A DNA stretch of 64,000 nucleotides from Elusimicrobia bacterium GWD2_63_28 (lineage in GTDB: Bacteria; Elusimicrobiota; Elusimicrobia; Elusimicrobiales; UBA9959), in NCBI GenBank assembly GCA_001799895.1, contig MGUI01000015.1:20338-84337 (forward strand), in the 5' to 3' direction. The first letter of the stretch is position 1. Each line of letters opens with the position of its first letter. The notes below the pieces were generated by a model. That model ran no database searches. It was not told where the DNA came from and was given only the letters and a program-made list of their open reading frames with translations. Positions 22,291-36,200 of this stretch are shown here, in pieces. Made by a program: the position numbers and the translations under genes.

Positions 22291-24048
22291 TCAGGCTGAC
22301 AATAGTTCGCGGTCAGCAAAAATATCGCTTTCGCGGGCCTTGATGTAGACCCTGATGGCGTAATTGAAATAGAGCTCACGAACAAGCTTCTGCTCCGGAG
22401 TCTTTTCAAACCTGTCCCAGCCCAGCGCCGCGTCCAGGCCGCGCTGCAGTTCCGGCAGGTTCTCAGCCGAGACCTTGTCGGCCGCCGCCAGACTGCCGTC
22501 CGTAAAAGTAAAATCGCAATAACAGTTCAGGTCGCCTTTGAAAGGTCCGGGGACGATCCCGTACTTGGGCGCGTTCTTATAAGTTTCGGCCTGCGGCAGC
22601 AGGTTGAGGCGGCCTATATGGTAGGTTACCCGGGGCAGGTCCTTGAGAGTCTCCGCTATGAACGCCGCGGTGGTCTTCGCCTCCTCCGGAGTTTCTCCCG
22701 GGAAGCCGGTGATGAAAGTGAGGTGCTGCCCCAGGCCCGCCGCGGCGGCCGCTTTTATCACCGCCCGGGTGGTCTCCGCGGGCACGGGGTCGGGGTACTT
22801 GCGCATCAGGGCCTGCACGCGCGGGACCACGGTCTCCACGCCGAAAAAGATCTCGCTGCAGCCGGCCCGCTTGATCTTATTCAAAAGCTCGTCGGGGTGC
22901 CGGGCGTCCAGCCGGCAGCGGCAGCCCCACTTGATGTCGAGGCCCTTGGCCAGCACCAGGTCCGAGAAATGGTTCAGCAAATCCGGATGCACCGCCTCGT
23001 CCTCGAAGTAAAAATATTTGTAGCCGAGCCGGGCCAGCCGCTCTATCCTGGGGAAAGTCGCGTCGATGTCGGCCTTCTCCGGCGCGGCGCCGCTCTGGTG
23101 CTTGGAATGCTGCGCGCAGAAGGCGCACTTGTTCCAGTAACAGCCCTTGCCGCTGAGGCGCAGCAGGAAGGAGGGCTCGGGCGTAAAGACATGCAGCAGG
23201 GGCGGGCAGGTTTCCCCGTCCGACGCCGGCGGCTCGCCGGTAAAGTCGGCGGCCGTCAGGAAGCCGGCAGGCCTCTTGCCCGCCGCCAGGTCGCGCAGCA
23301 GCAGCGGCATCACGCGGTCCGCCTCGTAGCTGTGCTTGATCACGGAATCTATCAGCTGGAACACGGCGCCTGTCCTGACTATGGCTTCGGCCTGCCAGTC
23401 CAGGGAAAAGTTCTCGTAGCCGGGGTCCGTGACGCAGATATATACGCCGGGATTCAGCTCCTTCAGGCATTGCGCCCAGACCAGGGCGGAAAGCAGGTCG
23501 AATTCCGACGTGACCGGGATAAAGCAGGCGTCCGGTGTGAAAGGCAGCTTTGCCGCCGCCGCCCTGTAGCTGGCGCGCAGGACAGTATCCTTGCCTGAGA
23601 AAGCCAGCATCTCCGCTGTTTCCCGGAAGCCCAACCCGTTTACGACCGGGCCGTTCTGTACGCCCACGGAGAATTCGTCCACCAGGAAATTGAAGACCCG
23701 CAGGTAGTCGGAAAAGGGCTTCAGGGCCGCGGCATAGGAGGCGGCCGAGGCGTAGGTGGCCGGGGCGCGCATAGCTTCCAGCGAGGCCCCGGCGCGGAGG
23801 GCCAGCTTTTCCAGTCCGGGGATCCCCGCGCTGGAGGACAGCTTCTCCGAAATGATCTTCGCCAGCGGCAGCTTCTCCGCCAGTATGCCGACGAAGGACG
23901 ACGAACAGAAAGCCCGCCACCACATCTCGTTGGCGTTGAAATACGCATACTCGTGCTCTTTGGAGGCGGCGGCGGCGTCCCACCATTTCCCCGGGTCGTG
24001 GACCAGGTTGGGCAGGCAGCCGGGCAGTATGGAGAAAAGTATTTTCAT
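22291..24048 (-). CDS. Radical SAM enzyme with class-B (B12-binding-like) architecture, RiPP island member
   Basis: 585 aa. Cluster motif GKGCYWNKCAFCAQH (23116-23142), followed by FYFEDEAV, IFFGVETV and other rSAM core elements. ATGA overlap with the M50 gene. GAGGAA SD. Confidence 0.75.
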   Translation of the reverse strand: MKILFSILPGCLPNLVHDPGKWWDAAAASKEHEYAYFNANEMWWRAFCSSSFVGILAEKLPLAKIISEKLSSSAGIPGLEKLALRAGASLEAMRAPATYASAASYAAALKPFSDYLRVFNFLVDEFSVGVQNGPVVNGLGFRETAEMLAFSGKDTVLRASYRAAAAKLPFTPDACFIPVTSEFDLLSALVWAQCLKELNPGVYICVTDPGYENFSLDWQAEAIVRTGAVFQLIDSVIKHSYEADRVMPLLLRDLAAGKRPAGFLTAADFTGEPPASDGETCPPLLHVFTPEPSFLLRLSGKGCYWNKCAFCAQHSKHQSGAAPEKADIDATFPRIERLARLGYKYFYFEDEAVHPDLLNHFSDLVLAKGLDIKWGCRCRLDARHPDELLNKIKRAGCSEIFFGVETVVPRVQALMRKYPDPVPAETTRAVIKAAAAAGLGQHLTFITGFPGETPEEAKTTAAFIAETLKDLPRVTYHIGRLNLLPQAETYKNAPKYGIVPGPFKGDLNCYCDFTFTDGSLAAADKVSAENLPELQRGLDAALGWDRFEKTPEQKLVRELYFNYAIRVYIKARESDIFADRELLSA

Positions 24049-25157
24049 TGTTTCCTCAGGGTGGCGTAACCTTCTTTAAAGCGGGGGATCAGGCCCTTGG
24101 CGACTATGACCAGGATATAGACGTTGATGAGCGCGCCCAGAACGCCGCCGCCGGACCAGGTCCCGGCGAAGAGAAAAGCGCCCAGGCCCTTGGCCATCAG
24201 CCAGACCACGTAGACCAGGTAAAGCGTGAACCCCAGCATGGCCAGGGAGTAGATCTTTTCGGAAAAGACCGCGTAGCGGTTGCCCTTGTAGGCGGTGACG
24301 ATATCCTTGTAGCACCAGTAGCCGTCGGTGTTAAGCAGCGGGTTCAGGTTGAAGAGCAGCAGGAAGGCCAGGTACTGCACCACCACGAAATAGGCGCCCC
24401 AGCCCGTGGCCAGGTAGGCGATGACCACGCCGGCCATGAAGAGGCTCTGCAGCGCGAGGCCAGCCAGGTTTATGGAGATCTTCGGCTTGAGCGGCAGCTC
24501 CCCGATGCCGGAGACATTGGCGTAAAAGACCGGGTACATCAGGTACAGGGAGAAACCTATGGGCCGGAAGCCGATGCCGTTGAGGTAGGCGAAGATGGAA
24601 TGCCCGGCCTCGTGCACCAGGATGCTCAGCAGTATTATCGCGAACACCGCGCCCTGCTCGCCCGCCGTGAGCGCTATCCCCCGCCCGGCGGAAAAGCCGG
24701 CGAAGGAGAAAAGCGCGGAGAGCAGCAGCCCGAGCAGGCAGCTGGCCAGCGCGAAGCGGAAAAGGGCCTCGCCGGTGAATTCCGCGTCCTTCAGGAAAAA
24801 GAAAACGCGGTCCTGCAGCTTCGAGGGGAAAAATTCCAGGGCCGGGTTCAGCAGGTATTTCAGGAGCGTCTTGTGCCAGGGGTTCTCGGAAGCCGGCACC
24901 AGGCACTTTATCTCCACCAGCTTGGCCAGTATTTTTTCCGGCTCGGGCACGCCCAGGCGGCGCAGCTCGCCGATATAGTCGGCGGGCGGCCCCTTGCGCG
25001 GCAGGCGTGAGATTATATTCTTGGTGGAGGCGCTTATCTTGAAGCAGGAATCCCCGGTGACGACCAGCCAGGAGCCGCCCCGGGGAACGGCGTAGTTATT
25101 CAGGAAAACGTTTTTCAGCGTCTCCGGCTTTTTTTCGGGCCCCGTGGTCTGGGTCAT
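24045..25157 (-). CDS. Membrane S2P/M50-type zinc metalloprotease with PqqD/RRE-like N-terminal domain
   Basis: 370 aa. HEAGH (ILVHEAGHSIFAY) plus the second S2P motif NLNPLLNTDG, with multiple TM segments. The N-terminal 95 aa (SWLVVTGDSCFKISASTKNIISRL...ADYIGELRRLGV..PEKILAKLVEIKCLV) follows the strand-strand-three-helix pattern of PqqD-like domains. Confidence 0.7.
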   Translation of the reverse strand: MTQTTGPEKKPETLKNVFLNNYAVPRGGSWLVVTGDSCFKISASTKNIISRLPRKGPPADYIGELRRLGVPEPEKILAKLVEIKCLVPASENPWHKTLLKYLLNPALEFFPSKLQDRVFFFLKDAEFTGEALFRFALASCLLGLLLSALFSFAGFSAGRGIALTAGEQGAVFAIILLSILVHEAGHSIFAYLNGIGFRPIGFSLYLMYPVFYANVSGIGELPLKPKISINLAGLALQSLFMAGVVIAYLATGWGAYFVVVQYLAFLLLFNLNPLLNTDGYWCYKDIVTAYKGNRYAVFSEKIYSLAMLGFTLYLVYVVWLMAKGLGAFLFAGTWSGGGVLGALINVYILVIVAKGLIPRFKEGYATLRKQ

Positions 25158-25164
25158 CTGGAGG

Positions 25165-26541
25165 CTAGTTGCCGGCCTTGGCCTTCTGGTTCTCCAGGTA
25201 GGAGAACCGTATGGCCTCCGCCAGGGACTCCCTGTGGTCGGCGCAGTCCGGCGCGAAGATGTCCTTGTACAAGACCCTGGCGTTATAGGCGCAGCTGCCG
25301 CCGCACAGCAGCGCGTAGGGGCAGTCCAGGCATTCTTTTATGCTGCTCACGTCGCGGGAAAGGTTCCGCTTCAGCGTATCCGTAAAGGTCACGCCGTCCT
25401 TCGTCACTTTGCCGAGCAGGTATTCCTCGCGGCCCGCCTCTACGGTGCAGCCGTAAAGCTCGCCGTTAGGGTCCAGGATGAAGGCGTTGGGCCTGTTGTG
25501 CATGCAGTGGGTGGTATGGGAAAGCCGCCGGTTCGGGGTGGCGAGGGTGTTTTTCATGTCCCAGACCCGCGAATTCAGCGGATAGCCGAACTTCGCGCTT
25601 ATCTCCCTGGCTATCGGGTGCGTGACGTCGATGTGCTGGGTAAGCTTGGTTGGGTCCGTGGCCGTATAGTCCCTGACCGGCGCCAGGTGCGGGAAGCAGC
25701 GCGGGTGCCCCACTATGTCCTGCTCTATCAGGTAATCCACCGTATCGCGCAGCGCCGCGTAGTTGTCGCCTATGACGTGCATTCGGATGGCTACGGTAGC
25801 TTTTTTGTCCAGCATCAGGTGGATGTTGGAGATGATCTTCTGGAACTTCGCGCCCTCGGAGCGCTGCAGCGAGGCGCCCTTATAGCCGCCCGCGTCGAGC
25901 GTGACCTGCACGCTGTTGATATTGCCGGGCAGCGGGCCCAGCATGTCGGCCACGCACTCTATGGTGCTGCAGTTGGAGATGGCGGAGGTCCGGATGCCGT
26001 ATTTCGCCGTGTACTCCATTATTTTGCGTATTATCGGCGCGTTGGACGGCTGGAACGGCTCCCCGCCGTAAAGCGTGATGTCCATATCGTGCGGCTTCAC
26101 TCCGGGGAAGATGGCGGAGAAATGTTTATTGAACACCAGGTCCAGCAGCTCGTCGGAGATCTTGGGGCCCCACTTGCGCGGCTTCAAATCTTTCTGGTAG
26201 CAGTACTCGCAGGAGAGGTTGCAGTCGTAGCCCAGCAGCAGCATCAGGACCGCCGAGCTCGTGACCGACTCGAGGTTCTCCTTGTGCAGCACGGCGACGC
26301 GCTTCGCGAATTCCGCCCTTTCCGTGTCGGGCGGCAGCTCCGTGACGTGGCCTCTTTTTTTAAAGAAAGCCAGCTCGTTTTCGGAGATAAAATCCAGGCT
26401 GCCGCCGTCTTTAGCCTGGCGCATTTTTTCGGCGAAATCTTTGCGGACCACGTCCACGTTCCCGGAAAAGCCGTTGAACAGCAGGACCTTGTCGTCGAGG
26501 TTTATCAGCGCCAGGTAGCGGCTAAGATAGGATTTTTTCAT
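25165..26541 (-). CDS. Radical SAM/SPASM-domain peptide maturase
   Basis: 458 aa. CNLSCEYC (CX3CX2C), and a C-terminal Cys-rich auxiliary-cluster region CMHNRPNAF..GELYGC...CLDCPYALLCGGSCAYNA...C. An N-terminal ~100 aa extension is typical of peptide-binding rSAM maturases. Confidence 0.85.
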   Translation of the reverse strand: MKKSYLSRYLALINLDDKVLLFNGFSGNVDVVRKDFAEKMRQAKDGGSLDFISENELAFFKKRGHVTELPPDTERAEFAKRVAVLHKENLESVTSSAVLMLLLGYDCNLSCEYCYQKDLKPRKWGPKISDELLDLVFNKHFSAIFPGVKPHDMDITLYGGEPFQPSNAPIIRKIMEYTAKYGIRTSAISNCSTIECVADMLGPLPGNINSVQVTLDAGGYKGASLQRSEGAKFQKIISNIHLMLDKKATVAIRMHVIGDNYAALRDTVDYLIEQDIVGHPRCFPHLAPVRDYTATDPTKLTQHIDVTHPIAREISAKFGYPLNSRVWDMKNTLATPNRRLSHTTHCMHNRPNAFILDPNGELYGCTVEAGREEYLLGKVTKDGVTFTDTLKRNLSRDVSSIKECLDCPYALLCGGSCAYNARVLYKDIFAPDCADHRESLAEAIRFSYLENQKAKAGN

Positions 26542-28195
26542 AGAATTTACCCTGTTTCACGGCCTCGGAGTATTCGTGCGCGGCCAGGAAGCGCTCTTCC
26601 GCCAGCGTCGAGAAAGCGCCGGCCGGCTTCGGCTTGAAGTAGCGGTGATATTTCCCTTCGTAGAGGTACTGGTCTTCGCCGTCCAGGTAAGCCTCGGCCT
26701 TCTGCTTTATTTCCGGCAGTTTTTTGACATGCGCCTCGTAGGCCGGGCCCGACAGCCCCAGGGCGTCGGCGAGACCGCCGCCGTTCATCCCGGCGAGCAG
26801 GCAGAACCTGAGCCCGTCGGCAACGTGCCTGGCGCGCTTCGCCGGCAGGGCTAAGGAATTCAGCGCGCCAAGCGCGAAAGAATACAGCAGTTCCCCGGCG
26901 AGCAGCTGCTTGAGCTCACCCCCCGGCCTGTCGGGAGATATAAAGATCGTCCCGTTCCCGGCGCTGAAGACCCGGGCGTTGCCCATCAGCAGGCTTACCA
27001 CCTTAAGCTTCCCTGTCCTGAAAAAGAGGCCGTTCGGGAAAGATTTCTCCACCAGGTCCCTGGCCCGGGCCGCGAGGGACTCTATTTCGGCGGGGCTTAA
27101 AGAGGCCGGCACGCCGCCGGCCTGCAATTTGAGGCGCAGTTCCTCGAACTCGGCCCCGCCCGCTTTGGAGCGGGCCAGGCCGTGGCGGGCGAAAACGGCC
27201 GCAAGCCGCGGCAGGCCGCCGGTAAGGAAGCCGGCGAAATCTGAGGCCTCGTTCACTATCGCCGCTATCTCCGCCGTCTCGTCCGCCACCTGTACGCCCT
27301 CCGGCTCCGAAGCAGCGGGGGCCGACCCGCGCGCGGCTTCAGCGAAGGCCTTTGCGGCCTTGCCCACAAAAACCGCATAGTCGTCCAGTTCGGCGGCGGG
27401 AATAGCTTCTGGCAGGAACATATTGACCCCGTTGCCGTTGGCCATGTTCGAGACGCTCAGCCAGACGGAAAGCGGGCCGGCGGCCTGCCCGCCTAGGGCG
27501 GAGAGGTCGGTGAGGAGCTTGCGGCTTTTCAGGTCAAAGAAACCGTAGCGGGCGCCCGCCCCCGGTTCCTCGAAAGAGTCCAGCTCTACCCTGGCGAGGC
27601 CGGCTTCCTCAGGTAATGGGGAGGAGGAAAGCCAGGCGCAGCAGGCCCCGCTTTTAGCCAGCTGCAAGGCCAGGGCCGCGTTGGCCAGCGAAGAGAGGTT
27701 CCAGCCGGAGATATTTTCAGGTGAGGACGAGAATTCGGCCGGGTGGCAGACCGCCGGCTCTTTAGCCGCCGCCAGGATCTTTTCTTTTTCAGCGCCGGGC
27801 AGGAAATAGAGTACGGCGCCGTCTTTGCCCGTAGAGACGTGTTCGACGGCAAGCTCGAACAGCTTCTCCCCGGTTTCCGCGGCGTAAACGCCTAACGACC
27901 GGCCGAGCAGCCCGCCGGGCTTGGGATAGCCGGAAACCGCGGCGAAGAAATATTTCCCTTCGGGCCCGCGCTTCAGCAGGCCGCCGGGGCCGGCGAGCCG
28001 GGCGCAGACGCAGACCTTGCCCGGCTTGACAACTTCCGGCGACTCCGCGCCCACGAAAACGCCCCCGCCCGGGGCGAAGAAATGCGGCATGCCCGCCAAT
28101 ATCTCCCGAAGCGGCAGAGAATGTTCCGGCTGCTTTAGCCCGGGAACGATACGGCAGGATGAAAGTTTCTTAAGAAGGTCGAGGTATTCAGTCAT
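26522..28195 (-). CDS. Hypothetical 557-aa protein of the RiPP island (no domain recognised)
   Basis: Long ORF co-directional with the island genes. Its 3' end overlaps the SPASM gene start by 20 nt. Coding-like amino-acid composition, and no motif I can name. Confidence 0.6.
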   Translation of the reverse strand: MTEYLDLLKKLSSCRIVPGLKQPEHSLPLREILAGMPHFFAPGGGVFVGAESPEVVKPGKVCVCARLAGPGGLLKRGPEGKYFFAAVSGYPKPGGLLGRSLGVYAAETGEKLFELAVEHVSTGKDGAVLYFLPGAEKEKILAAAKEPAVCHPAEFSSSPENISGWNLSSLANAALALQLAKSGACCAWLSSSPLPEEAGLARVELDSFEEPGAGARYGFFDLKSRKLLTDLSALGGQAAGPLSVWLSVSNMANGNGVNMFLPEAIPAAELDDYAVFVGKAAKAFAEAARGSAPAASEPEGVQVADETAEIAAIVNEASDFAGFLTGGLPRLAAVFARHGLARSKAGGAEFEELRLKLQAGGVPASLSPAEIESLAARARDLVEKSFPNGLFFRTGKLKVVSLLMGNARVFSAGNGTIFISPDRPGGELKQLLAGELLYSFALGALNSLALPAKRARHVADGLRFCLLAGMNGGGLADALGLSGPAYEAHVKKLPEIKQKAEAYLDGEDQYLYEGKYHRYFKPKPAGAFSTLAEERFLAAHEYSEAVKQGKFYEKILS

Positions 28196-28207: not shown

Positions 28208-28239
28208 AAGTCCCCACAAAACAGGGTTTATGGGGACTT
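28208..28239 (-). terminator. Hairpin (attenuator/partial terminator) between precursor genes and maturase genes
   Basis: AAGTCCCCA (28208-16), 14-nt loop, TGGGGACTT (28231-39). On the minus-strand RNA it is followed by UUUAAAUUUAAACU and then the AUG at 28195. Confidence 0.5.
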
Positions 28240-28348: not shown

Positions 28349-28558
28349 TCAACCGCGCACGGCGGATGGCATGTTTCCCGGGCGCGTCTCTATTTTTTTC
28401 AGGATGCAGTCGCAGAGGGATCCGTAAACGCCGTCATTGTTCTTGCTGCCGGCCGTTAGGACGGCAGTAAAAGACAGGCGCCTGTCCAGTTCGGCCACCA
28501 GCAGGTCCTCTTCCGCCAGGAACTCCACCGATTCTATTATGTTGGATTCGCTCTTCAT
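28349..28558 (-). CDS. RiPP precursor peptide P1 (69 aa)
   Basis: MKSESNIIESVEFLAEEDLLVAELDRRLSFTAVLTAGSKNNDGVYGSLCDCILKKIETRPGNMPSAVRG. ATG 28558 with GAGGA SD, 11 nt after the P2 stop. The track N-terminal extension to 28651 is rejected because it overlaps P2. Confidence 0.85.
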   Translation of the reverse strand: MKSESNIIESVEFLAEEDLLVAELDRRLSFTAVLTAGSKNNDGVYGSLCDCILKKIETRPGNMPSAVRG

Positions 28559-28569
28559 TTGATCCTCAC

Positions 28570-28785
28570 TTATCCGCGCACAGCGGATGCCAGGTTGCCG
28601 CACGGGCGTGGCTCGAATTTCTTCAGGATGCAGTCGCAGAGGGATTCGCAATGTCCGTTATTGTTCCTGGAACAGGCCTCCAGGACTAAAGCGGAAAACG
28701 ACAGCCTCTTATCCAGCTCGGCCACCAGCAGGTCGTCAGCGGCCAGGAACTCCACCGATTCTATTATGTTTGATTCTTTGCTCAT
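28570..28785 (-). CDS. RiPP precursor peptide P2 (71 aa)
   Basis: MSKESNIIESVEFLAADDLLVAELDKRLSFSALVLEACSRNNNGHCESLCDCILKKFEPRPCGNLASAVRG. ATG 28785 preceded by AAGGGGGA. Confidence 0.85.
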   Translation of the reverse strand: MSKESNIIESVEFLAADDLLVAELDKRLSFSALVLEACSRNNNGHCESLCDCILKKFEPRPCGNLASAVRG

Positions 28786-28814
28786 ATTTCCCCCTTCTGC
28801 GCTCTTCATGACTA

Positions 28815-28837
28815 ATACGGAACAATTTTAATGCCAG
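28815..28837 (-). promoter_or_regulatory. Conserved 23-nt upstream element, copy 1 (sigma54-like -24/-12 spacing)
   Basis: Minus strand reads CTGGCATTAAAATTGTTCCGTAT. It is identical to the copy at 29383-29405 while the flanks differ. It reads TGGCAT-N5-TTGT against the sigma54 consensus TGGCAC-N5-TTGC. Lies ~37 nt upstream of the P2 ATG. Confidence 0.45.
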
Positions 28838-28890
28838 AGATATTCGCGTGCCGCTCTGCTATTATCTCCGCCTGGCCATGACGCCACTTA

Positions 28891-28924
28891 TTTTCACATG
28901 AAAATGTATATTTTCATATGAAGA
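28891..28924. promoter_or_regulatory. Two phased palindromic boxes upstream of the P2-P1 element (candidate regulator/activator binding site)
   Basis: TTTTCACATGAAAA (28891-28904) and TTTTCATATGAAGA (28911-28924, core TTCATATGAA). Their starts are 20 bp apart, and they lie 55-90 bp upstream of the 23-nt element. Confidence 0.4.
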
Positions 28925-28949
28925 TATTTCAGGCGCCGGGGCGTTAAAC

Positions 28950-29159
28950 TCAACCCCTTACGGCGCTGACGCCGCTGGCCTGGTTCGCGCAGTCAAATGA
29001 CTTAGCGAAGCAACCGCAGATGCCGCCACCGAAGCCGGTGCAGCTCTTGCCCGTATCCCCCAGAGCCGTAAAGGAAAGGCGCTTGTCCAGCTCGGCCACC
29101 AGCAGGTCGTCCGCGGCCAGGAACTCCACGGATTCGATTATGTTCGTTTCGTTCTTCAT
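28950..29159 (-). CDS. RiPP precursor peptide P3 (69 aa)
   Basis: MKNETNIIESVEFLAADDLLVAELDKRLSFTALGDTGKSCTGFGGGICGCFAKSFDCANQASGVSAVRG. AAGGAA SD, 11 nt after the P4 stop. Confidence 0.85.
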   Translation of the reverse strand: MKNETNIIESVEFLAADDLLVAELDKRLSFTALGDTGKSCTGFGGGICGCFAKSFDCANQASGVSAVRG

Positions 29160-29170
29160 AACATTTCCTT

Positions 29171-29347
29171 TTATCCCCTAACGGCTGAAGGCTGGCTTGG
29201 TCCCTGGGGAACATTATAAGTGTAGCCGACACAATCACAAACTCCCGGAACCGATACAAAGGACAGCCTCTTGTCCAATTCCGCGACCATCAAATCCTCT
29301 TCCGACAGGAATTCCACCGATTCAATTATGTTGGTTTCTTTTTTCAT
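29171..29347 (-). CDS. RiPP precursor peptide P4 (58 aa, not in the ORF track)
   Basis: Hand translation of the minus strand from ATG 29347 gives MKKETNIIESVEFLSEEDLMVAELDKRLSFVSVPGVCDCVGYTYNVPQGPSQPSAVRG, with TAA at 29173-29171. AAGGTGA SD. Same leader, CxC motif and SAVRG tail as P1-P3. Confidence 0.8.
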   Translation of the reverse strand: MKKETNIIESVEFLSEEDLMVAELDKRLSFVSVPGVCDCVGYTYNVPQGPSQPSAVRG

Positions 29348-29382: not shown

Positions 29383-29405
29383 ATACGGAACAATTTTAAT
29401 GCCAG
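29383..29405 (-). promoter_or_regulatory. Conserved 23-nt upstream element, copy 2
   Basis: Same 23-mer CTGGCATTAAAATTGTTCCGTAT on the minus strand, ~43 nt upstream of the P4 ATG. Confidence 0.45.
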
Positions 29406-29488: not shown

Positions 29489-31063
29489 TTACGCGCCGGA
29501 CATCTGCTTCAGGTCGGCCAGGACGGCTTCCTTGGCGTAATTGAAATGCAGGTCCGCGCGTTCTTTGGCCAGGGCGGCCCTGGCTGAGGGGTTGGAATGG
29601 TCGGCCTTCACAAGGTCGGCTATGAGGCGCAGGACGCTCATATCGCTTATGATCTTTGCCTGCGTAAGAGCGTTGCGCTCCTTGTAGGGCTCTATGGCCG
29701 CCTCAAGGATGAAGGCGTAGATGCGCCTGTAAAGGGCGTCCGCCTGCTCCCAGATAAAGCCTACGGCAGGGTCTTTGAAGCGGTACTGCAGGTAAAGCGT
29801 CTCAATGCCGGCGCCTGTAAGATCGGCGCTCTTCTCGAACAGCCCTTCGGCCTTTATATCCGCCAGGGCCTTGGTATAGATATGGGCCTTCATGCGGTAG
29901 GCGCCGTAAGAGAAATGCTCCAACCCCACCTTCACCATGAAGTTGGCCGAGCGCACCAGGTCCGGCACGGTGGTCCAGGGGGTGAAAAAGATGTAGCCGC
30001 AGTCGAAATGCACTTTTTCCGCGTTAAGGATATTAACGGCTTCGCAGATCTCAGCCACGGTGATCTTCTTGTTGAACGCCTCCAGTTCGGAAGCGTTAAT
30101 TGACTCTACGCCGATGAAGAGGCCGGTCAGGCCGCAGGCCTTCAGGATCTTCAGGCGGGGCGCGGTAATGTCGTTCACGCGGCAGGCGATGAAGAAACCG
30201 ATCTCCAGGCCCCGCTTTTTTATTTCGGCGCTGAAGTCTTCCAGGTATTTATCGGCGGCGCCGGCATCGGCGGACGGGAAGAAATTGTCGGCCTGGAAAT
30301 TAAAGTGGCGGCAGCCGGCCCTATAGAGCTCCTCCACCTCGTCGAAGAAAGAATTCAGGGACCTGCGGCGTATGGCGGAATGGCCGGAAAGGCCGTAAAA
30401 CTCCTGCAGGGCGCAGAACGAACAGCGCCCGTAGCAGCCCCTGGCTAGCTCCACCGGCTGCATGCCCCCCGTGCCGCCGTAACGCAGCGGGCGGGGCAGG
30501 GCGTCCAGGTCGCCGGTGACGCGGACATGCGGATTTTTAACCAGTGCGCCATCTTTCCCGGGGTAGATTATCCCGCTGGTAGCGCGCCAGTCGCGGCCTT
30601 CCCTGAGGTTGGCCGCCAGTTCGCAGGCGGCGGCTTCGCCGTCGCCGTAAACTATGGAATCGAAGTAAGGAAACTTTGAGAACAGCAGTTCCGCGTAAAG
30701 CGAGGCAAAGGCCCCGCCGGCCGTGATATGCTGTTTGCAGCCGGCGGCCCGCAGCTTTTTAATTATCCTTATCGCCGGGCCCAGGTTGTAGATATTCAGG
30801 GAAAAGCCGAGGCAGTTAAAATCGCTTTGAGCTGCCAGCGCCACGGTCTCGTCGACCGAAAGCCTCTCGAAATTAGAATCTATGATCCTGAAACTGACGC
30901 CTTTTTCCCGCAGGTAGGCGGCCAGCGCGCCCAGGCCCAGGTTGAGCTGCTCCTCCTGGCGCTCGTAATACTTGTAGAACATCTCCTGCGGATGTTCTAT
31001 TTCTATGGAGGGATTGAGCAGCAGCAAGTCGACTTTCCCGCCTGGGCCGCCGGTTTCGTTCAT
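29489..31063 (-). CDS. B12-binding-domain radical SAM enzyme (class B), RiPP island member
   Basis: 524 aa. An N-terminal Rossmann-like B12-type domain (VDLLLLNPS...GLGALAAYLREKGVSFRIID) and the cluster motif LARGCYGRCSFCAL (CX3CX2C). Starts 19 nt after the hutH stop. Confidence 0.8.
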   Translation of the reverse strand: MNETGGPGGKVDLLLLNPSIEIEHPQEMFYKYYERQEEQLNLGLGALAAYLREKGVSFRIIDSNFERLSVDETVALAAQSDFNCLGFSLNIYNLGPAIRIIKKLRAAGCKQHITAGGAFASLYAELLFSKFPYFDSIVYGDGEAAACELAANLREGRDWRATSGIIYPGKDGALVKNPHVRVTGDLDALPRPLRYGGTGGMQPVELARGCYGRCSFCALQEFYGLSGHSAIRRRSLNSFFDEVEELYRAGCRHFNFQADNFFPSADAGAADKYLEDFSAEIKKRGLEIGFFIACRVNDITAPRLKILKACGLTGLFIGVESINASELEAFNKKITVAEICEAVNILNAEKVHFDCGYIFFTPWTTVPDLVRSANFMVKVGLEHFSYGAYRMKAHIYTKALADIKAEGLFEKSADLTGAGIETLYLQYRFKDPAVGFIWEQADALYRRIYAFILEAAIEPYKERNALTQAKIISDMSVLRLIADLVKADHSNPSARAALAKERADLHFNYAKEAVLADLKQMSGA

Positions 31064-31082: not shown

Positions 31083-32609
31083 TCAGGGGACGAAATAGCC
31101 GTTCAGCACCGCGTCGGCCACGGCCTCTATGCGGCCGGAGAAGACCTCGTCGCCCTTGAAGGCGGGGGAGATCTTGCGGAGCTGCGCGAGGGCGGCCTCC
31201 ACGCGGGCGCCCGACTTGAGCGGGCGGTGGAACTCCACGCCCTCGGCGGCGGCCATCAGCTCTATGGCGGTTATGCACGCCACGTTGCGCACCACGGTGC
31301 GCAGTTTCAGCGCGGCGTTCATGCCCATGCTGACGAAGTCCTCCTTGTTGGCGGAGGTGGGGATGGAATCGGCGCTGGCCGGGTGGCTGAGGATCTTGTT
31401 CTCGTTGCAGAGCGCGGCGGCGGTGACGTGCGCTATCATGAAGCCCGACTCCAGCCCCGGGTTGCGGGCCAGGAAAGGCGGCAGGATCTCGAAGTCGCTG
31501 ACCAGCTGGGCGGTGCGTCGCTCGGAGATATTGCCGAGGGCCGTGAGGGCGATGGCGGCGAAGTCGGAGGCGAAGGCCACGGCCTGGCCGTGGAAGTTGC
31601 CGCCGGAGATGACGTCTATGGAGCCGCGCGTTTTTCCCTCTACCACCAGGGGGTTGTCGGTGACGCTGCCCAGCTCCGTCTCGAAAACGTTCAGCGCGTA
31701 CTCGATGGCGTCGCGGGCGGCGCCCATGGCCTGCGGCATGCAGCGCAGGCAGTAAGGGTCCTGCACGCGCTTGTCGGCCGTCTTGTGCGAGGCGCGGATC
31801 TGGCTGCCCTTCAGCATGGACTCCAGCATCTCCGCCACCTCGAGCTGCCCGGGATGCGGCTTCAGCTCGTGGATGCGCTTGTCGAAGGCGGAAGGGGTGC
31901 CCTTCAGCGCCTCCACGCTCATGGCCCCGGCGAGCACGGAGGAATAGAACAGGTTCATGGCCTCGAAGAGCGCCAGGCCGCCGACGGCCTTCATGGCCTG
32001 AGTGCCGTTGATCAGGGCGAGGCCCTCTTTCTCAGCCAGCTCTATCGGTTTTATGCCGGCTTCCTTCAGCACCTCGGCGGAAGGGCGCCAGTCGCGCTCG
32101 TCCTCGAACTTGGCCATGCCCTCGCCTATCAGGGTCAGCGCCATGTGGGCCGACGGGGCAAGGTCGCCGCTGGCGCCTACCGAGCCCTTGGACGGGATGA
32201 ACGGGATAACGCCCTTGTTGACGAGGGCCGAAAGGGTTTTAACCACCACCGGGCGCACGCCGGAGTTGCCGCGGGCTAGCTCGTTGGCCCGGGCGAAGAT
32301 GAGGCCGCGGGCCTCGGCGTCGTCGAGCGGGTCGCCTACGCCGCAGGCGTGGCTGCGGATCAGGTTCACCTGCAGGCTCTTCAGGCTTTCGCGCGAGACG
32401 CGCTGGCTGGCCAGCTCGCCGAAGCCGGTGTTGATGCCGTACATCACGCGGTCCTCGGCCAGCAGCGCCTCCAGCGCTTTGCGCCGGGACTCTATAAGTT
32501 TAAGGGCCTTGGGCGGGATCTCGGTCTTGCGGTAGCCGAAGGCCACCTCGGCGAAGTCCACTATATCCGGGGCCGAACCGAGGCTGAAAGGCTTGTTCTT
32601 TGCGCTCAT
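31083..32609 (-). CDS. hutH: Histidine ammonia-lyase
   Basis: MIO-forming GSVGASGDLAPSAH motif, with full-length HAL-like sequence. I prefer ATG 32609 (GGAGGA 8 nt upstream, ATGA overlap with the upstream gene) over 32627. Confidence 0.95.
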   Translation of the reverse strand: MSAKNKPFSLGSAPDIVDFAEVAFGYRKTEIPPKALKLIESRRKALEALLAEDRVMYGINTGFGELASQRVSRESLKSLQVNLIRSHACGVGDPLDDAEARGLIFARANELARGNSGVRPVVVKTLSALVNKGVIPFIPSKGSVGASGDLAPSAHMALTLIGEGMAKFEDERDWRPSAEVLKEAGIKPIELAEKEGLALINGTQAMKAVGGLALFEAMNLFYSSVLAGAMSVEALKGTPSAFDKRIHELKPHPGQLEVAEMLESMLKGSQIRASHKTADKRVQDPYCLRCMPQAMGAARDAIEYALNVFETELGSVTDNPLVVEGKTRGSIDVISGGNFHGQAVAFASDFAAIALTALGNISERRTAQLVSDFEILPPFLARNPGLESGFMIAHVTAAALCNENKILSHPASADSIPTSANKEDFVSMGMNAALKLRTVVRNVACITAIELMAAAEGVEFHRPLKSGARVEAALAQLRKISPAFKGDEVFSGRIEAVADAVLNGYFVP

Positions 32610-33199
32610 GATGTTTTTCCTCCGCATTTTTCCGAAAGGTCCTTCACGGTCGCCACCCCGGCGGCCCTGAAGGCGGTTATGAAATGTTCAAAGATCTTGC
32701 GCGTCATTTCCACGTCGGCGAGCGCGCGGTGCCAGCCCTGGCTGGAGATGTTGAGTTCGGCGGCGATATTGCCCAGCCGGTTGCTCTGGAACTTCCAGTT
32801 CTTGCGGGCTATGGCGAGGGTGTCCACCACGTGCAGCTTCGGGAACTTAAGCCCGACCCGTTTGAATTCTTCCCGCAGGAAGCCCAGGTCGAAGTCGGCG
32901 TTATGCGCCACCACGACGGCGTTCTCCAGCAGGTCCAGCAGGCGCGGCGCCACCTGGCCGAAGGACGGGCTGTCCTTGACCATGGCGTCGGTGATGCCGT
33001 GGATCTTGGAGACCTCCGCGGGGATAGGCACGCCGGGGTTGACCAGCTCGGACAGCGTTCCCACGCGGGCAGCTCCCAGGAAACTGACGGCGGCCACCTC
33101 GCAGACGCGAGCCGACCGCGGGGAAAGCCCGGTGGTCTCCACGTCGATGAAGGTAAAGACGGCTTCTTCTATTTTTTGTTTCTCTATTACTTCCAGCAT
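32606..33199 (-). CDS. DEDD 3'-5' exonuclease (DNA polymerase III epsilon-like)
   Basis: 197 aa. ExoI FIDVETTGL, ExoII VVAHNADFDLGFL, ExoIII HRALADVEMT. Confidence 0.8.
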   Translation of the reverse strand: MLEVIEKQKIEEAVFTFIDVETTGLSPRSARVCEVAAVSFLGAARVGTLSELVNPGVPIPAEVSKIHGITDAMVKDSPSFGQVAPRLLDLLENAVVVAHNADFDLGFLREEFKRVGLKFPKLHVVDTLAIARKNWKFQSNRLGNIAAELNISSQGWHRALADVEMTRKIFEHFITAFRAAGVATVKDLSEKCGGKTS

Positions 33200-33929: not shown

Positions 33930-36149
33930 TTAGCCTTTCTCGGTAAGGTTGAACGACTGGTCCCAGTCCTTGATCGGCTCTTTGATAAAGAGCTCGGCCT
34001 TGCCTATGTAGAATTTGACCGGCCCGTCGTCCGGGCGGGCGGCCAGCGCGGCCTGGAAGTCCGGCAGGGACCCGGCGTAGTCGCCCTTGTAGAACTTCTC
34101 TATGCCCGCCTCGTAGTGCTTGAGCATGGCCTTCACTTCCGGCTCCGCTTCCCCCTTCATGGCGAAGGGCTCGTAGACCTTCACGGGGATGAGCTTGCCC
34201 ACCACCCGGATGCTGCCGAGGTAGCGGTAGTCGAAGAAGTCCTTGATGTCGCCGAAGGTCATCTCGCTGGTCATGATCTTGGAGGCGAAGTACTTGTTGG
34301 CGCCCTCCATGCGGGAGGCCATGTTCACGGTGTCGCCCATGACGGTGTAGGAGAGGCGCGACCTGGAGCCCATGTTGCCCACTACCATAGGGCCGGAGTT
34401 AACGCCCACGCGGCATTTGGGCTTTATGGTGAACTGCGTGAGCGCCTCGTTGAGGCGCGTCATGGCTTTCTGGCAGTCTATGGCCGCCATCACGCCGAGC
34501 TTGCGGTGGTCGGCCTGGTCCAGAGGGGCGTTCCAGAAGGCCACGACGCAGTCGCCGATATACTTATCCACCGTGCCGTCGTACTTCAGGATGACGTCGG
34601 TAAAGGCCGACAGGTATTCCACCAGCATGGAGGTCAGCTCTTCGGGCGAGAGCTTCTCGGACATGGTCGTGAAGCCCGCCAGGTCCAGGAAGAAGGCGGT
34701 CATGTCGCGCTTCTCGCCGCCCAGCGACAGCTTGGACGGGTCCTTGGTGATCATTTCCACCACCTTCGGCGACAGGTACTGTCCGAAGGTGTTCTTTATC
34801 CATTTCTTCTCGCGGCCCTCGGCCAGGCCCTTGTCCACGGTAATGTAGGCGAAAGGCAGGAAGAAGGCTAGAGACACCGTGGCAAAAGGCATCAGCACTC
34901 CGTTGATCAGCAGAACCACGTAGCCGACCGCCAGGGCCAGCAGGAAGCCGGTCCCGGAGGAGGTTAGCACGGGCATCGAATACTTGCGCAGGATTACCGG
35001 CACCCAGGGCAGCAGCAGCGTGAGCAGCGTGGTCCAGCCGAGGAAGAGCGGCGTAATAAAGTCCCCGGAGAGGGCGTTGTCGATGTAGGTGGCGTGCACC
35101 TCCACGCCCGGCAACTGTTTGGAGAAGGGACTGGGCGAATAATCGAAGGCGCCCACGGCCGTGGAGCCCACCAGCAGGACGCCGCCTTTTATAGCTTCTC
35201 TTTCTTCCTTGCTGAGGCGTCCGCTAAGGATGTCGGCAAAGGAGATATGCCTGAAGCTGGAGCCGGTCACGTCCCTCTTATCTTTTGTCCAGCCGGGATG
35301 CTTGACCCGCGCCACATAGTTGCGGTAGCGCAGGATCTTTCCCTGGCTTTCGGTCGCTTGCTCGGCCGCGTCTCTTTTGTATTCGTAAAAAAGCTGGGAA
35401 ACATGCTTGCCGGTATAGAAAGACACCCCGGCTATGCCGATGGAAGGGATAGGCAGGTCGGGGAATTCCTTGCCCATCGCGGTCTTTTTCAGTTCCGTCT
35501 GACCGAAAGTTATATATTCCACAGGGTCAGCCGTCTCATCCTTAACCCAGAACGGCATGTAGCGCCGTATCTGGCCGTCGGTGTCGAGCAGCGTATCCAC
35601 GTGCGGGTGGGACATGATGGCGCTGGCCGCGGCCAGCCCCTTGATCGGGTACTTGAAATTCTCGGTTCCCGACTCCTTGATGATCAGGTTGGAGACATTG
35701 CCCGCCCTGGCCGTGGCGGCTACGAAGCGGCTATTGTCGGAGTCTTTGTCCCGCTTACTCTGCGTTACTATCACATCGAAGACTACGGCCTTGGCGCCGT
35801 ACTGTTTCAGCCTGTCTATCATGTCGCCGTATAGGTTGCGGGGAATGGGCCAGCCATACTGGTCCAGCGAATAGTCGTCTATGGCCGCGATGGAAATCTT
35901 GGAATTGGCCGGTTTCGTGATATATTTGCCGTAAAACACCCTGTTGCCGAAAGAATCGTCCGGCTCCATCAGCCTGTCGGCGAAAGGGACATGATTGGCT
36001 ATTAGGGTGGGCAGGTTCATGATAAAATGGTCCCAGCCGAAATCCAGGCGCCGTGTGATTTCAGAGACGGTGCATGTCGTGAACCAGAGCACGGAAAACA
36101 CGAGAATCCCCGCATAGAGTTTCTTATTCCCCGCAGTTTTAGTCGCCAT
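33930..36149 (-). CDS. CHASE2-domain sensor adenylate/guanylate cyclase with C-terminal helical-repeat region
   Basis: 739 aa. N-terminal TM, a large periplasmic CHASE2-like region, TM bundle, cyclase motifs MTAFFLDLAGFTTMSEKL, GDCVVAFWNAP and VGVNSGPMVVGNMGS. Confidence 0.85.
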   Translation of the reverse strand: MATKTAGNKKLYAGILVFSVLWFTTCTVSEITRRLDFGWDHFIMNLPTLIANHVPFADRLMEPDDSFGNRVFYGKYITKPANSKISIAAIDDYSLDQYGWPIPRNLYGDMIDRLKQYGAKAVVFDVIVTQSKRDKDSDNSRFVAATARAGNVSNLIIKESGTENFKYPIKGLAAASAIMSHPHVDTLLDTDGQIRRYMPFWVKDETADPVEYITFGQTELKKTAMGKEFPDLPIPSIGIAGVSFYTGKHVSQLFYEYKRDAAEQATESQGKILRYRNYVARVKHPGWTKDKRDVTGSSFRHISFADILSGRLSKEEREAIKGGVLLVGSTAVGAFDYSPSPFSKQLPGVEVHATYIDNALSGDFITPLFLGWTTLLTLLLPWVPVILRKYSMPVLTSSGTGFLLALAVGYVVLLINGVLMPFATVSLAFFLPFAYITVDKGLAEGREKKWIKNTFGQYLSPKVVEMITKDPSKLSLGGEKRDMTAFFLDLAGFTTMSEKLSPEELTSMLVEYLSAFTDVILKYDGTVDKYIGDCVVAFWNAPLDQADHRKLGVMAAIDCQKAMTRLNEALTQFTIKPKCRVGVNSGPMVVGNMGSRSRLSYTVMGDTVNMASRMEGANKYFASKIMTSEMTFGDIKDFFDYRYLGSIRVVGKLIPVKVYEPFAMKGEAEPEVKAMLKHYEAGIEKFYKGDYAGSLPDFQAALAARPDDGPVKFYIGKAELFIKEPIKDWDQSFNLTEKG

Positions 36150-36200
36150 AGTTACAGAACCCCTTTACTGTTTTTCAGAACAGGCTTTTTACCCCAGCGT

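What the first reader, a model, noticed from the sequence alone, without database searches (positions are those of the whole stretch)
28349..29347. Four tandem precursors with conserved leader, variable Cys core with a shared CxC, and an invariant C-terminal SAVRG tail kept by synonymous codons
- **Leader.** P1-P4 share NIIESVEFL(A/S)x(E/D)DL(L/M)VAELD(K/R)RLSF.
- **Core.** The middle diverges completely in sequence and length (23-36 residues), but each contains one CxC (LCDCIL, LCDCIL, ICGCFA, VCDCVG).
- **Tail.** All four end in SAVRG followed by a stop. The tail uses different codons in each copy: Ser TCC/TCC/AGC/TCA, Val GTG/GTG/GTA/GTT, Arg CGC/CGC/AGG/AGG, Gly GGT/GGA/GGT/GGA. Conservation is therefore at the protein level, not a DNA repeat artefact.
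- **Interpretation.** A conserved element at both ends of a hypervariable core suggests a leader-core-follower architecture, or a C-terminal recognition or modification site. By loose analogy, the C terminus is the substrate in mycofactocin-type systems.
Basis: seen in the sequence. Interest (0 to 1): 0.85.

Follow-up and report, generated by a model that had tools for sequence, protein, structure and literature searches.

The report
Peptide precursors with invariant Arg-Gly tail
Four neighbouring small genes in an uncultured Elusimicrobia genome encode precursors of an undescribed family of enzyme-modified peptides that keeps a fixed start, a free-varying cysteine middle and a fixed Arg-Gly end, next to radical-SAM enzymes and one protein with no known relatives.

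Summary
Four minus-strand ORFs (P4 29171-29347, P3 28950-29159, P2 28570-28785, P1 28349-28558) share a 25-residue leader, one CxC each, and SAVRG-stop. The tail is written with different codons: 8 of 15 tail bases vary and no residue changes.

Searches of billions of proteins found only 25 distinct relatives.
- All have the leader.
- 24 of 25 end in Arg-Gly, as [S/T/C/A][A/G]xRG.
- All have at least one Cys after the leader, but only 17 have CxC.

The genes sit in a conserved module: precursor(s), an orphan 557-aa protein, a SPASM radical-SAM enzyme, an M50-like membrane metalloprotease and a CX4CX2C radical-SAM enzyme. The upstream enzyme is either a B12-radical-SAM (tails S/T-A-x-RG) or a YcaO (tails C/T-G-x-RG).

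Orthologous cores are under purifying selection, so the middle is product, not spacer.

No curated family, solved structure or paper matches the peptides or the 557-aa protein.

Best reading: a new, lineage-restricted radical-SAM RiPP family with a leader, a Cys core that is cross-linked, and a C-terminal tail that is a second enzyme-directed site. The chemistry is untested. A mycofactocin-type reading is not supported.

The parts
29171..29347 (-). Precursor P4 (58 aa; tail codons 29174-29188). It is the first gene of the array and has no NCBI protein record.
28950..29159 (-). Precursor P3 (69 aa; tail codons 28953-28967). It starts 11 nt after the P4 stop.
28570..28785 (-). Precursor P2 (71 aa; tail codons 28573-28587).
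28349..28558 (-). Precursor P1 (69 aa; tail codons 28352-28366). It starts 11 nt after the P2 stop.
29383..29405 (-). A 23-nt element, CTGGCATTAAAATTGTTCCGTAT, that looks like a sigma-54 -24/-12 promoter. It ends 42 nt upstream of the P4 ATG.
   Evidence: There are only two matches in the 64 kb window, 0.15 expected. They form an exact 23-nt repeat. The same element lies upstream of precursors in other loci.
28815..28837 (-). Second, identical copy of the sigma-54-like element. It ends 36 nt upstream of the P2 ATG.
28208..28239 (-). A 13-bp hairpin followed by a U/A-rich tract, lying between the P1 stop and the start of the 557-aa gene. It resembles a terminator or attenuator.
   Evidence: The whole spacer does not fold better than shuffles (z = -1.2), so this is only a consensus-level call.
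29489..31063 (-). B12-binding radical-SAM enzyme (524 aa, CX3CX2C at residues 210-217). This is the swappable accessory enzyme; a YcaO takes its place in sister loci.
   Evidence: Pfam B12-binding plus Radical_SAM. It is far below every NCBIfam cut-off. Nearest PDB entries are OxsB, TokK and TsrM. The swap is shown.
26522..28195 (-). Orphan 557-aa soluble protein, conserved directly downstream of the precursors in every locus long enough to show it.
   Evidence: No Pfam, NCBIfam or PDB match. Homologues of 32-55% identity are found in the other loci.
25165..26541 (-). Radical-SAM/SPASM peptide maturase (458 aa, CX3CX2C at residues 107-114, about 95-residue N-terminal extension).
   Evidence: SPASM domain at 46.9 bits against a cut-off of 27. 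The nearest families are maturases of Cys-rich peptides (CefB, TIGR04463, geopeptide, Clo7bot, PapB, SCIFF), all below cut-off. Nearest PDB entry is CteB, 5wgg.
24045..25157 (-). M50-like intramembrane metalloprotease (370 aa). It has HEAGH at residue 182 and NPLLNTDG at about 272-279. Hydrophobic transmembrane-like stretches run from about residue 130 to 360. An N-terminal soluble domain of about 125 residues precedes them.
22291..24048 (-). Radical-SAM enzyme of 585 aa with a non-canonical CX4CX2C motif (residues 303-311) and a 300-residue N-terminal domain. It resembles class-B (B12-type) enzymes.
   Evidence: Nearest PDB entry is AprD4, 6fd2.

Best explanation
The four ORFs are translated precursor peptides of a previously undescribed radical-SAM RiPP family. 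So far it is seen only in close relatives of one Elusimicrobia lineage.

**Proposed mechanism (steps 1-4 are inferred, not shown)**
1. The invariant 25-30-residue leader (NI.ESV.F....DLLV.ELD[KR]RLSF) docks the peptide onto the maturases. The most likely site is the N-terminal extension of the SPASM enzyme.
2. The SPASM enzyme makes cysteine-derived thioether cross-links (sacti- or ranthi-type) in the variable core.
3. The C-terminal [S/T/C]-[A/G]-(V/I/L)-Arg-Gly-COOH is a second, separately recognised module, often set apart by a Pro-rich linker. It is the site on which the family-specific enzymes act: the orphan 557-aa protein, the CX4CX2C radical-SAM enzyme, and the interchangeable B12-radical-SAM or YcaO.
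4. The M50-like membrane protease then removes the leader near RLSF and may release the product. No transporter is encoded in the cluster.

**What is shown**
- The genes and their protein-level conservation.
- The conserved gene module.
- The enzyme swap that tracks the tail subtype.
- Purifying selection on orthologous cores.
- Dedicated sigma-54-like promoter elements in front of the precursors.
For: **Family signature**
- 25 distinct members were found. All have the leader, 24 end in RG, and all have at least one Cys after the leader.
- Tail Arg uses CGC, AGG, CGG, AGA and CGA across members; Gly uses GGT, GGA and GGC.
- Leader pN/pS is 0.13-0.19.

**Core is functional**
- Orthologous cores are under purifying selection: P2 versus L008a has pS 0.58 and pN 0.15 (p = 5e-5); P2 versus L011a gives p = 1.5e-6.
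- Paralogous cores have pN/pS of 0.5-0.8.

**Conserved gene module**
- The order precursor(s), 557-aa protein, SPASM, M50-like, rSAM585 is complete in the window, L005, L008 and L017. In L004 the M50 gene is split.
- An upstream B12-rSAM homologue goes with [ST]A[VI]RG tails (window, L008, L011, L020). An upstream YcaO goes with [CT]G[VIL]RG tails (L004, L005, L017, L019).
- The same MAG assembly has a minimal cluster: an 83-aa precursor without an RG tail, plus SPASM and M50-like genes only. It lacks the 557-aa protein and rSAM585. So the tail travels with those two genes.

**Enzyme affinities**
- The SPASM enzyme's nearest families and nearest solved structure (CteB) are thioether-forming maturases of Cys-rich peptides.
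- The M50-like protein has HExxH and NxxPxxxxDG motifs and is weakly similar to the epipeptide and daptide RiPP proteases.

**Precedents in the literature**
- M50 proteases act in RiPP maturation (PMC10885120).
- The B12-rSAM ApyD methylates the penultimate residue of a conserved C-terminal motif (PMC10635010).

**Expression signals**
- Sigma-54-like elements lie 33-66 nt upstream of precursor ORFs in several loci.
Against: - No modification has been observed; every chemical step is inferred from family resemblance that falls below curated cut-offs.
- The enzyme/tail co-variation is essentially one split between two clades that also differ in the leader (VAELD versus VQELD). It counts as about one evolutionary event.
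- L018 has a different B12-rSAM and an AGTRG tail.
- P0025 lacks the RG tail but is followed by a homologue of the 557-aa protein.
- The YcaOs are closest to the E. coli stand-alone type, not to azoline-forming SagD-type enzymes.
- The structure of the 557-aa protein could not be predicted (pLDDT 38).
- An RRE fold in the N-terminal domains could not be shown.
Confidence: 0.55

Rival explanations
1. The tail is a follower peptide, that is, a protease or cyclase recognition signal that is cut off. This would resemble the C-terminal recognition sequence of cyanobactins or the bottromycin follower. The product would end at position -5 or -6, possibly as a heterocycle or a macrocycle.
For: - A Pro-rich stretch often precedes the tail, and position -5 is Ser, Thr or Cys in 22 of 25 members.
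- In YcaO loci that residue is usually Cys.
- Followers removed by dedicated hydrolases are known (PMC10885120).
- An orphan paralogue (P0009) lies next to a clostripain-family (C11) peptidase. By general knowledge that family is Arg-specific.
Against: - No recognisable second protease or macrocyclase is in the cluster, unless the orphan 557-aa protein is one.
- The most invariant residues are the last two (RG), not a cleavage junction.
- The YcaOs are not of the azoline-forming type by curated models.
Confidence: 0.2
2. Scaffold model, like mycofactocin or pearlins. The real product would be a small molecule built on the C-terminal residues and released by the M50-like protease acting as a carboxy-terminal peptidase. 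The middle would be a spacer.
For: - Only the leader and the tail are conserved family-wide.
- The M50 proteases TglG and TmoG release modified C-terminal residues from scaffold peptides (PMC10885120).
- No exporter is encoded in the cluster.
- P0028 has no Cys outside the tail.
Against: - Orthologous cores are under significant purifying selection.
- 24 of 25 members keep Cys in the middle segment.
- Several diverged paralogues are maintained per genome.
- Tail positions -5 to -3 vary.
- No PEARL/LanB-like or Mft-type genes are present, and the SPASM enzyme's best matches are maturases of Cys-rich peptides.
Confidence: 0.1
3. The tail is not an enzyme substrate. It would instead be an export, stability or self-protection tag, for example a C-terminal signal read by an efflux system or protecting the peptide against cytoplasmic proteolysis.
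For: - The orphan paralogues (P0009, P0008, P0016) lie beside OEP and RND efflux genes.
- No transporter is in the main cluster.
Against: - Tail positions -5 and -4 track the accessory enzyme type, which a pure export tag would not require.
- The sister minimal cluster lacks the tail together with two enzymes.
Confidence: 0.1
4. The ORFs are not expressed peptides: they would be a DNA repeat artefact or non-coding.
For: There is no expression data. P4 is not annotated in the NCBI record.
Against: - Synonymous-only variation in the tail and pN/pS of 0.13 in the leader.
- Shine-Dalgarno sites and dedicated promoter-like elements.
- 25 homologues in the same gene context.
Confidence: 0.02

Closest known systems
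Ranthipeptides / SCIFF and sactipeptides (radical-SAM/SPASM thioether RiPPs, e.g. CteB-SCIFF, PapB-freyrasin)
   Same: - An N-terminal leader and a Cys-containing core.
- A SPASM maturase with an N-terminal extension.
- The nearest families and the nearest solved structure are of this kind.
   Different: - The precursors match no curated precursor family.
- The maturase scores 50-92 bits against cut-offs of 340-600.
- An invariant C-terminal Arg-Gly, two further radical-SAM enzymes and an orphan 557-aa protein are not part of those systems.
Epipeptides (YydF/EpeX with the M50 protease YydH/EpeP) and daptides (MpaP protease)
   Same: - A membrane M50-like HExxH protease is encoded with radical-SAM or other tailoring enzymes.
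- Daptides, by general knowledge, also have several tandem precursors and an obligatory C-terminal residue that is modified.
   Different: - The protease scores 38.9 against a cut-off of 225 (LiaK family) and 36.9 against 300 (daptide family).
- No YydG-type epimerase was recognised.
- There is no daptide-type C-terminal Thr, and no aminotransferase or dehydrogenase set.
Mycofactocin (MftA with the SPASM enzyme MftC acting on the C-terminal Val-Tyr)
   Same: A SPASM radical-SAM enzyme together with a precursor whose extreme C-terminus is conserved.
   Different: - No MftB, MftD, MftE or MftF equivalents were recognised, and no Mft family is among the 25 best matches listed.
- The precursors are multi-copy with functional, diversifying cores.
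- The terminus is Arg-Gly, not Val-Tyr.
Aminopyruvatides (the apy cluster; B12-rSAM ApyD)
   Same: - A B12-radical-SAM enzyme acts on a conserved C-terminal motif: ApyD beta-methylates the penultimate Tyr (PMC10635010).
- Both window radical-SAM enzymes of class-B type give weak ApyD-family matches.
   Different: - Scores are 48-50 bits against a cut-off of 750.
- There are no MNIO or P450 genes, and the motif is different.

Membership tests
RiPP precursor (general definition) | Small ribosomally encoded peptides with a conserved recognition region and a variable core, clustered with modifying enzymes | tested here: met
RiPP precursor (general definition) | Demonstrated post-translational modification | not testable with these tools
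   Needs expression and mass spectrometry.
Ranthipeptide / SCIFF | Maturase reaches the curated cut-off of TIGR03974 (SCIFF maturase) or NF047865 (PapB) | tested here: not met
   49.9 bits against 425, and 69.2 bits against 340.
Ranthipeptide / SCIFF | Precursor matches a curated precursor model (SCIFF and similar) | tested here: not met
   No NCBIfam or Pfam hit at E <= 1 or E <= 10.
Ranthipeptide / sactipeptide | Cys sulfur to carbon thioether cross-links in the core | not testable with these tools
   Every member has at least one Cys after the leader, but the chemistry is unobserved.
Mycofactocin | MftC-family SPASM enzyme together with MftB, MftD, MftE and MftF genes | tested here: not met
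   No Mft family is among the 25 best NCBIfam matches listed for the SPASM enzyme (58 matched). The neighbouring genes are B12-rSAM, an orphan protein, M50-like and rSAM585.
Mycofactocin | Single conserved precursor ending in Gly-Val-Tyr | tested here: not met
   There are four to five diverged precursors per genome, each ending in Arg-Gly.
Epipeptide (YydF/EpeX) | YydH/LiaK-family protease at the curated cut-off | tested here: not met
   38.9 bits against 225.
Daptide | Daptide HExxH protease at the curated cut-off, and an invariant C-terminal Thr | tested here: not met
   36.9 bits against 300. The C-terminus is Gly.
Pearlin (scaffold peptide plus PEARL) | LanB-like, tRNA-dependent amino-acid-adding enzyme in the cluster | tested here: not met
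   No such domain was found in any cluster gene.
Azoline-containing RiPP (in the sister YcaO loci) | SagD-type cyclodehydratase YcaO at the curated cut-off | tested here: not met
   TIGR03604 scores 26.8-54.4 bits against 219. The best match is the E. coli-type YcaO, NF040716, itself below its cut-off.
Sigma-54 dependent promoter | TGGCAC-N5-TTGCW at -24/-12 upstream of the gene | tested here: inconclusive
   TGGCAT-N5-TTGTT lies 36-42 nt upstream of P2 and P4 and is conserved in other loci. The -12 element is GT rather than GC in most copies. No activator gene was seen in the window.

The most novel reading that the evidence does not exclude
The invariant Arg-Gly carboxy terminus may be the substrate of a new C-terminal chemistry. 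The enzymes would be the orphan 557-aa protein and the CX4CX2C radical-SAM enzyme, tuned by a swappable B12-radical-SAM or YcaO. It would operate alongside thioether cross-linking of a hypervariable Cys core. That would define a new dual-site RiPP class, and a new enzyme family, in Elusimicrobia.
Probability: 0.3. Interest if true: 0.75.

Novelty: new variant of a known kind. Interest (0 to 1): 0.6.

Why it matters
If correct, this is a compact and unexplored RiPP system from an uncultured phylum.
- It has a natural library of cores: one to four tandem precursors per locus, plus orphan copies elsewhere in the genome.
- It has three radical-SAM enzymes.
- It has a 557-aa protein with no detectable relatives outside the system.

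An obligatory C-terminal Arg-Gly gives a clear experimental handle, through tail swaps and truncations. These could show how a second recognition site directs tailoring enzymes.

The natural B12-rSAM/YcaO swap at one chromosomal site is a ready-made comparison of how accessory chemistry co-evolves with the substrate.

Tried and rejected
- **Structure of the 557-aa protein.** AlphaFold2 with the only three admissible sequences gave pLDDT 38.5 and was unusable.
- **More homologues of the 557-aa protein.** A profile search added nothing new. PDB and Pfam profile searches gave nothing.
- **N-terminal domain of the M50-like protein.** Single-sequence AlphaFold2 gave pLDDT 44. Its beta-beta-beta-alpha-alpha layout hints at an RRE but is not reliable. 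hhalign against the SPASM N-domain gave probability 0.1%.
- **Reference genomes.** Scans of GTDB representative genomes with the 557-aa profile and with the degenerate leader pattern found nothing.
- **Metagenomes.** The JGI metagenome scan gave five stretches; only one 1.4-kb contig (L013) was new, and it carries an already-known member (P0027).
- **False positive.** P0018 (1259 aa, 21 weak repeats) is a repetitive-translation artefact.
- **Nei-Gojobori on the 5-codon tail.** It reports spurious non-synonymous differences, because Ser TCN/AGY and Arg CGN/AGR switches need two steps. I used direct codon counts instead.
- **RNA elements.** Rfam and tRNA scans of the window were empty.
- **Literature.** Searches for the tail strings, for Elusimicrobia RiPPs and for the enzyme combination found no description of this family.
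Full report
**1. What is in the sequence**

The span 28349-29347 holds four small ORFs on the minus strand:

| Precursor | Coordinates | Length |
|---|---|---|
| P4 | 29171-29347 | 58 aa |
| P3 | 28950-29159 | 69 aa |
| P2 | 28570-28785 | 71 aa |
| P1 | 28349-28558 | 69 aa |

- They form two pairs, P4-P3 and P2-P1. Each pair has an 11-nt spacer.
- Each ORF has a Shine-Dalgarno-like run before its ATG.
- Alignment confirms the invariant leader, one CxC per peptide, and SAVRG-stop.
Eight of the 15 tail bases differ among the copies, and no residue changes.
- A degenerate back-translation of the leader matches four times in the window and never in 100 shuffles.
- Among the four copies the leader has pS 0.49 against pN 0.065.

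The conservation is at the protein level.

**2. Surroundings**

All neighbouring genes are on the same strand, in this order:
- hutH
- a B12-binding radical-SAM enzyme (29489-31063)
- the four precursors
- a 557-aa protein with no Pfam, NCBIfam or PDB match (26522-28195)
- a radical-SAM/SPASM enzyme (25165-26541)
- an M50-like membrane metalloprotease (24045-25157)
- a 585-aa radical-SAM enzyme (22291-24048)
- hutU

Details of the enzymes:
- The SPASM enzyme's nearest curated families all mature Cys-rich peptides: CefB, TIGR04463, geopeptide, Clo7bot, PapB and SCIFF. All score far below their cut-offs. Its nearest solved relative is the SCIFF maturase CteB.
- The M50-like protein has HEAGH, NPLLNTDG and an N-terminal soluble domain of about 125 residues. 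Hydrophobic transmembrane-like stretches run from about residue 130 to 360. It weakly resembles the epipeptide and daptide proteases.
- The 585-aa enzyme has CX4CX2C instead of CX3CX2C. Its nearest solved relative is AprD4, which belongs to an NCBIfam family of radical-SAM diol-dehydratases.
- No transporter is in the cluster.

**3. Relatives elsewhere**

- A profile of the four peptides found 12 proteins among 5.8 billion clusters.
- A full HMMER pass over 1.84 billion representatives found 19, one of them an artefact.
- The leader pattern and the 557-aa profile found nothing in 185,579 species-representative genomes.
- The leader pattern found five stretches in JGI metagenomes.
- NCBI names place P1-P3 and a fifth paralogue in Elusimicrobia bacterium GWD2_63_28 and a matching TPA MAG, all as "hypothetical protein". 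P4 has no NCBI record.

Across the 25 distinct members:
- Leader positions I2, E4, S5, E18, L19, D20, R22 and L23 are invariant.
- 24 of 25 end in Arg-Gly.
- Position -3 is V, I or L in 22.
- Position -4 is only G (13) or A (11), apart from P0025.
- Position -5 is S, C or T in 22.
- A Pro-rich stretch often precedes the tail.
- Arg is written with five different codons across members.
- CxC occurs in only 17 of 25, but every member has at least one Cys after the leader. In P0028 the only one is the tail Cys.
- P0025 ends PPPGD, yet a homologue of the 557-aa protein follows it.

**4. The gene module and the swap**

- In every locus long enough to judge, the precursors are followed by the 557-aa protein, SPASM, M50-like and rSAM585 genes. 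These are the window, L005, L008 and L017, plus L004 where the M50 gene is split.
- L004 and L017 lie at the same hutH/hutU site as the window.
- The gene upstream of the precursors differs between loci.
  - A homologue of the window's B12-rSAM is found in the window, L008, L011 and L020. Tails there are [ST]A[VI]RG.
  - One or two YcaO genes are found in L004, L005, L017 and L019. Tails there are [CT]G[VIL]RG.
  - L018 has a different B12-rSAM and an AGTRG tail.
- The two groups also differ in the leader (VAELD versus VQELD). The co-variation therefore amounts to roughly one evolutionary event. It is suggestive, not proof.
- The YcaOs are nearest the E. coli stand-alone type rather than the azoline-forming type.

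The same MAG assembly (locus tags DEQ38_ and A2089_) also carries two related features:
- An orphan precursor, P0009, lies next to efflux genes and a clostripain-family peptidase.
- Six kilobases away there is a minimal cluster: an 83-aa precursor with a related leader end (EDRMEF), plus SPASM (31% identity) and M50-like (33% identity) genes. It has no RG tail, no 557-aa protein and no rSAM585.

This single comparison suggests two pairings. The SPASM/M50 pair goes with the leader. The RG tail goes with the two family-specific genes.

**5. Is the middle a spacer?**

No. Orthologous cores are conserved while synonymous sites have diverged:
- P2 versus L008a: pS 0.58, pN 0.15, p = 5e-5.
- P2 versus L011a: p = 1.5e-6.

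Paralogous cores have pN/pS of 0.5-0.8. Distinct core types recur across relatives, for example NNNGHCESLCDCI, DTxKSCxG..CGCF and KATSMCSGKAYCDCLI. This argues against a mycofactocin- or pearlin-like scaffold model.

**6. Expression signals**

- An exact 23-nt repeat, CTGGCATTAAAATTGTTCCGTAT, precedes P4 and P2.
- Its core, TGGCAT-N5-TTGT, resembles a sigma-54 -24/-12 promoter.
- The same element lies 33-66 nt upstream of precursors in L001, L010 and L011.
- A near-identical element also precedes the 83-aa precursor of the minimal cluster.
- YcaO-type loci lack it.
- A 13-bp hairpin with a U/A-rich tail lies between P1 and the enzyme genes (28208-28239). By general knowledge of RiPP operons, this is the usual place for a leaky terminator.

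**7. Most likely mechanism**

1. Shown: these are conserved, selected small proteins in a conserved radical-SAM gene module.
2. Inferred: the leader binds the SPASM enzyme's N-terminal extension, and Cys residues are converted into thioether cross-links.
3. Inferred: the tail is a second site read or modified by the orphan protein, rSAM585 and the swappable B12-rSAM or YcaO.
4. Inferred: the M50-like protease removes the leader.

Literature precedents:
- M50 proteases remove leaders or release C-terminal residues in RiPP pathways (PMC10885120).
- The B12-rSAM ApyD methylates the penultimate residue of a conserved C-terminal motif (PMC10635010).

Rival readings remain open: a cleaved follower, a scaffold for a small C-terminal product, or an export tag. 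The scaffold model is the one the data most disfavour.

**8. Comparison and novelty**

- The system works like a radical-SAM/SPASM RiPP pathway.
- It fails every curated membership test tried: SCIFF/PapB, mycofactocin, epipeptide, daptide, pearlin and azoline YcaO.
- No paper in the searchable library describes it.
- I rate it a new variant of a known kind. It is a new precursor family with an unusual invariant C-terminus and an orphan enzyme, inside the familiar RiPP logic.
- Structure prediction of the orphan protein failed for lack of admissible homologues. Its role is the main open question.

Noticed in passing
window 29383-29405 and 28815-28837 (-); L001 9937-9952 and 3888-3903; L010 427-442; L011 361-376 and 974-989: A near-identical sigma-54-like element (TGGCATTAAAATTGT[T/C]) lies 33-66 nt upstream of precursor ORFs in B12-type and orphan loci. 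A similar element also precedes the unrelated 83-aa precursor of a second cluster. YcaO-type loci lack it. No sigma-54 activator gene was seen in the window.
   Followed up: partly
window 20559-22208 and 31083-32627; L004; L017: The whole peptide cluster sits between hutH and hutU, inside a histidine-utilisation gene set. hutI-like and formiminotransferase genes are nearby. The same insertion site is used by the YcaO-type clusters of related genomes.
   Followed up: partly
L001 10001-10216 (also L002, L003, L012, L016); L009; L010: A fifth family member (P0009, SAVRG tail) lies elsewhere in the same MAG assembly without maturase genes. It is flanked by OEP/RND efflux genes and by a clostripain-family peptidase plus unknown 584-aa and 195-aa proteins. 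A relative has two such orphan precursors in tandem.
   Followed up: partly
L016 8408-11305 (= L001 913-3810, minus strand): A minimal sister cluster: an 83-aa Cys/Pro-rich precursor with a related leader end (EDRMEF) and no RG tail, followed only by a SPASM enzyme and an M50-like protease.
   Followed up: partly
window 28880-28930: AT-rich palindromes (ATTTTCACATGAAAAT / ATTTTCATATGAAGAT) lie between P3 and the P2 promoter-like element. As RNA they fold into a 13-bp hairpin. They could be a regulator binding site.
   Followed up: no
window 22291-24048 (-): The 585-aa radical-SAM enzyme has CX4CX2C (C303, C308, C311) instead of the canonical CX3CX2C. It also has a 300-residue N-terminal domain with no family match.
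   Followed up: no
L011 974-1055: A third precursor (MHKGSNIIES...) begins at the cut end of this 1-kb contig, with its own sigma-54-like element. Array size therefore varies among relatives: one, at least three, and four copies.
   Followed up: no
L021 2345-2542: One family member (P0025) ends in PPPGD with no RG tail. It follows a 5'-nucleotidase gene rather than a B12-rSAM or YcaO, yet a homologue of the 557-aa protein comes next. It may be a decaying copy or a distinct subtype.
   Followed up: partly
window 33930-38213 (-): A CHASE2-adenylate/guanylate cyclase and a Cache/HAMP/PAS histidine kinase lie a few kilobases upstream of the cluster. No link to the peptides was tested.
   Followed up: no
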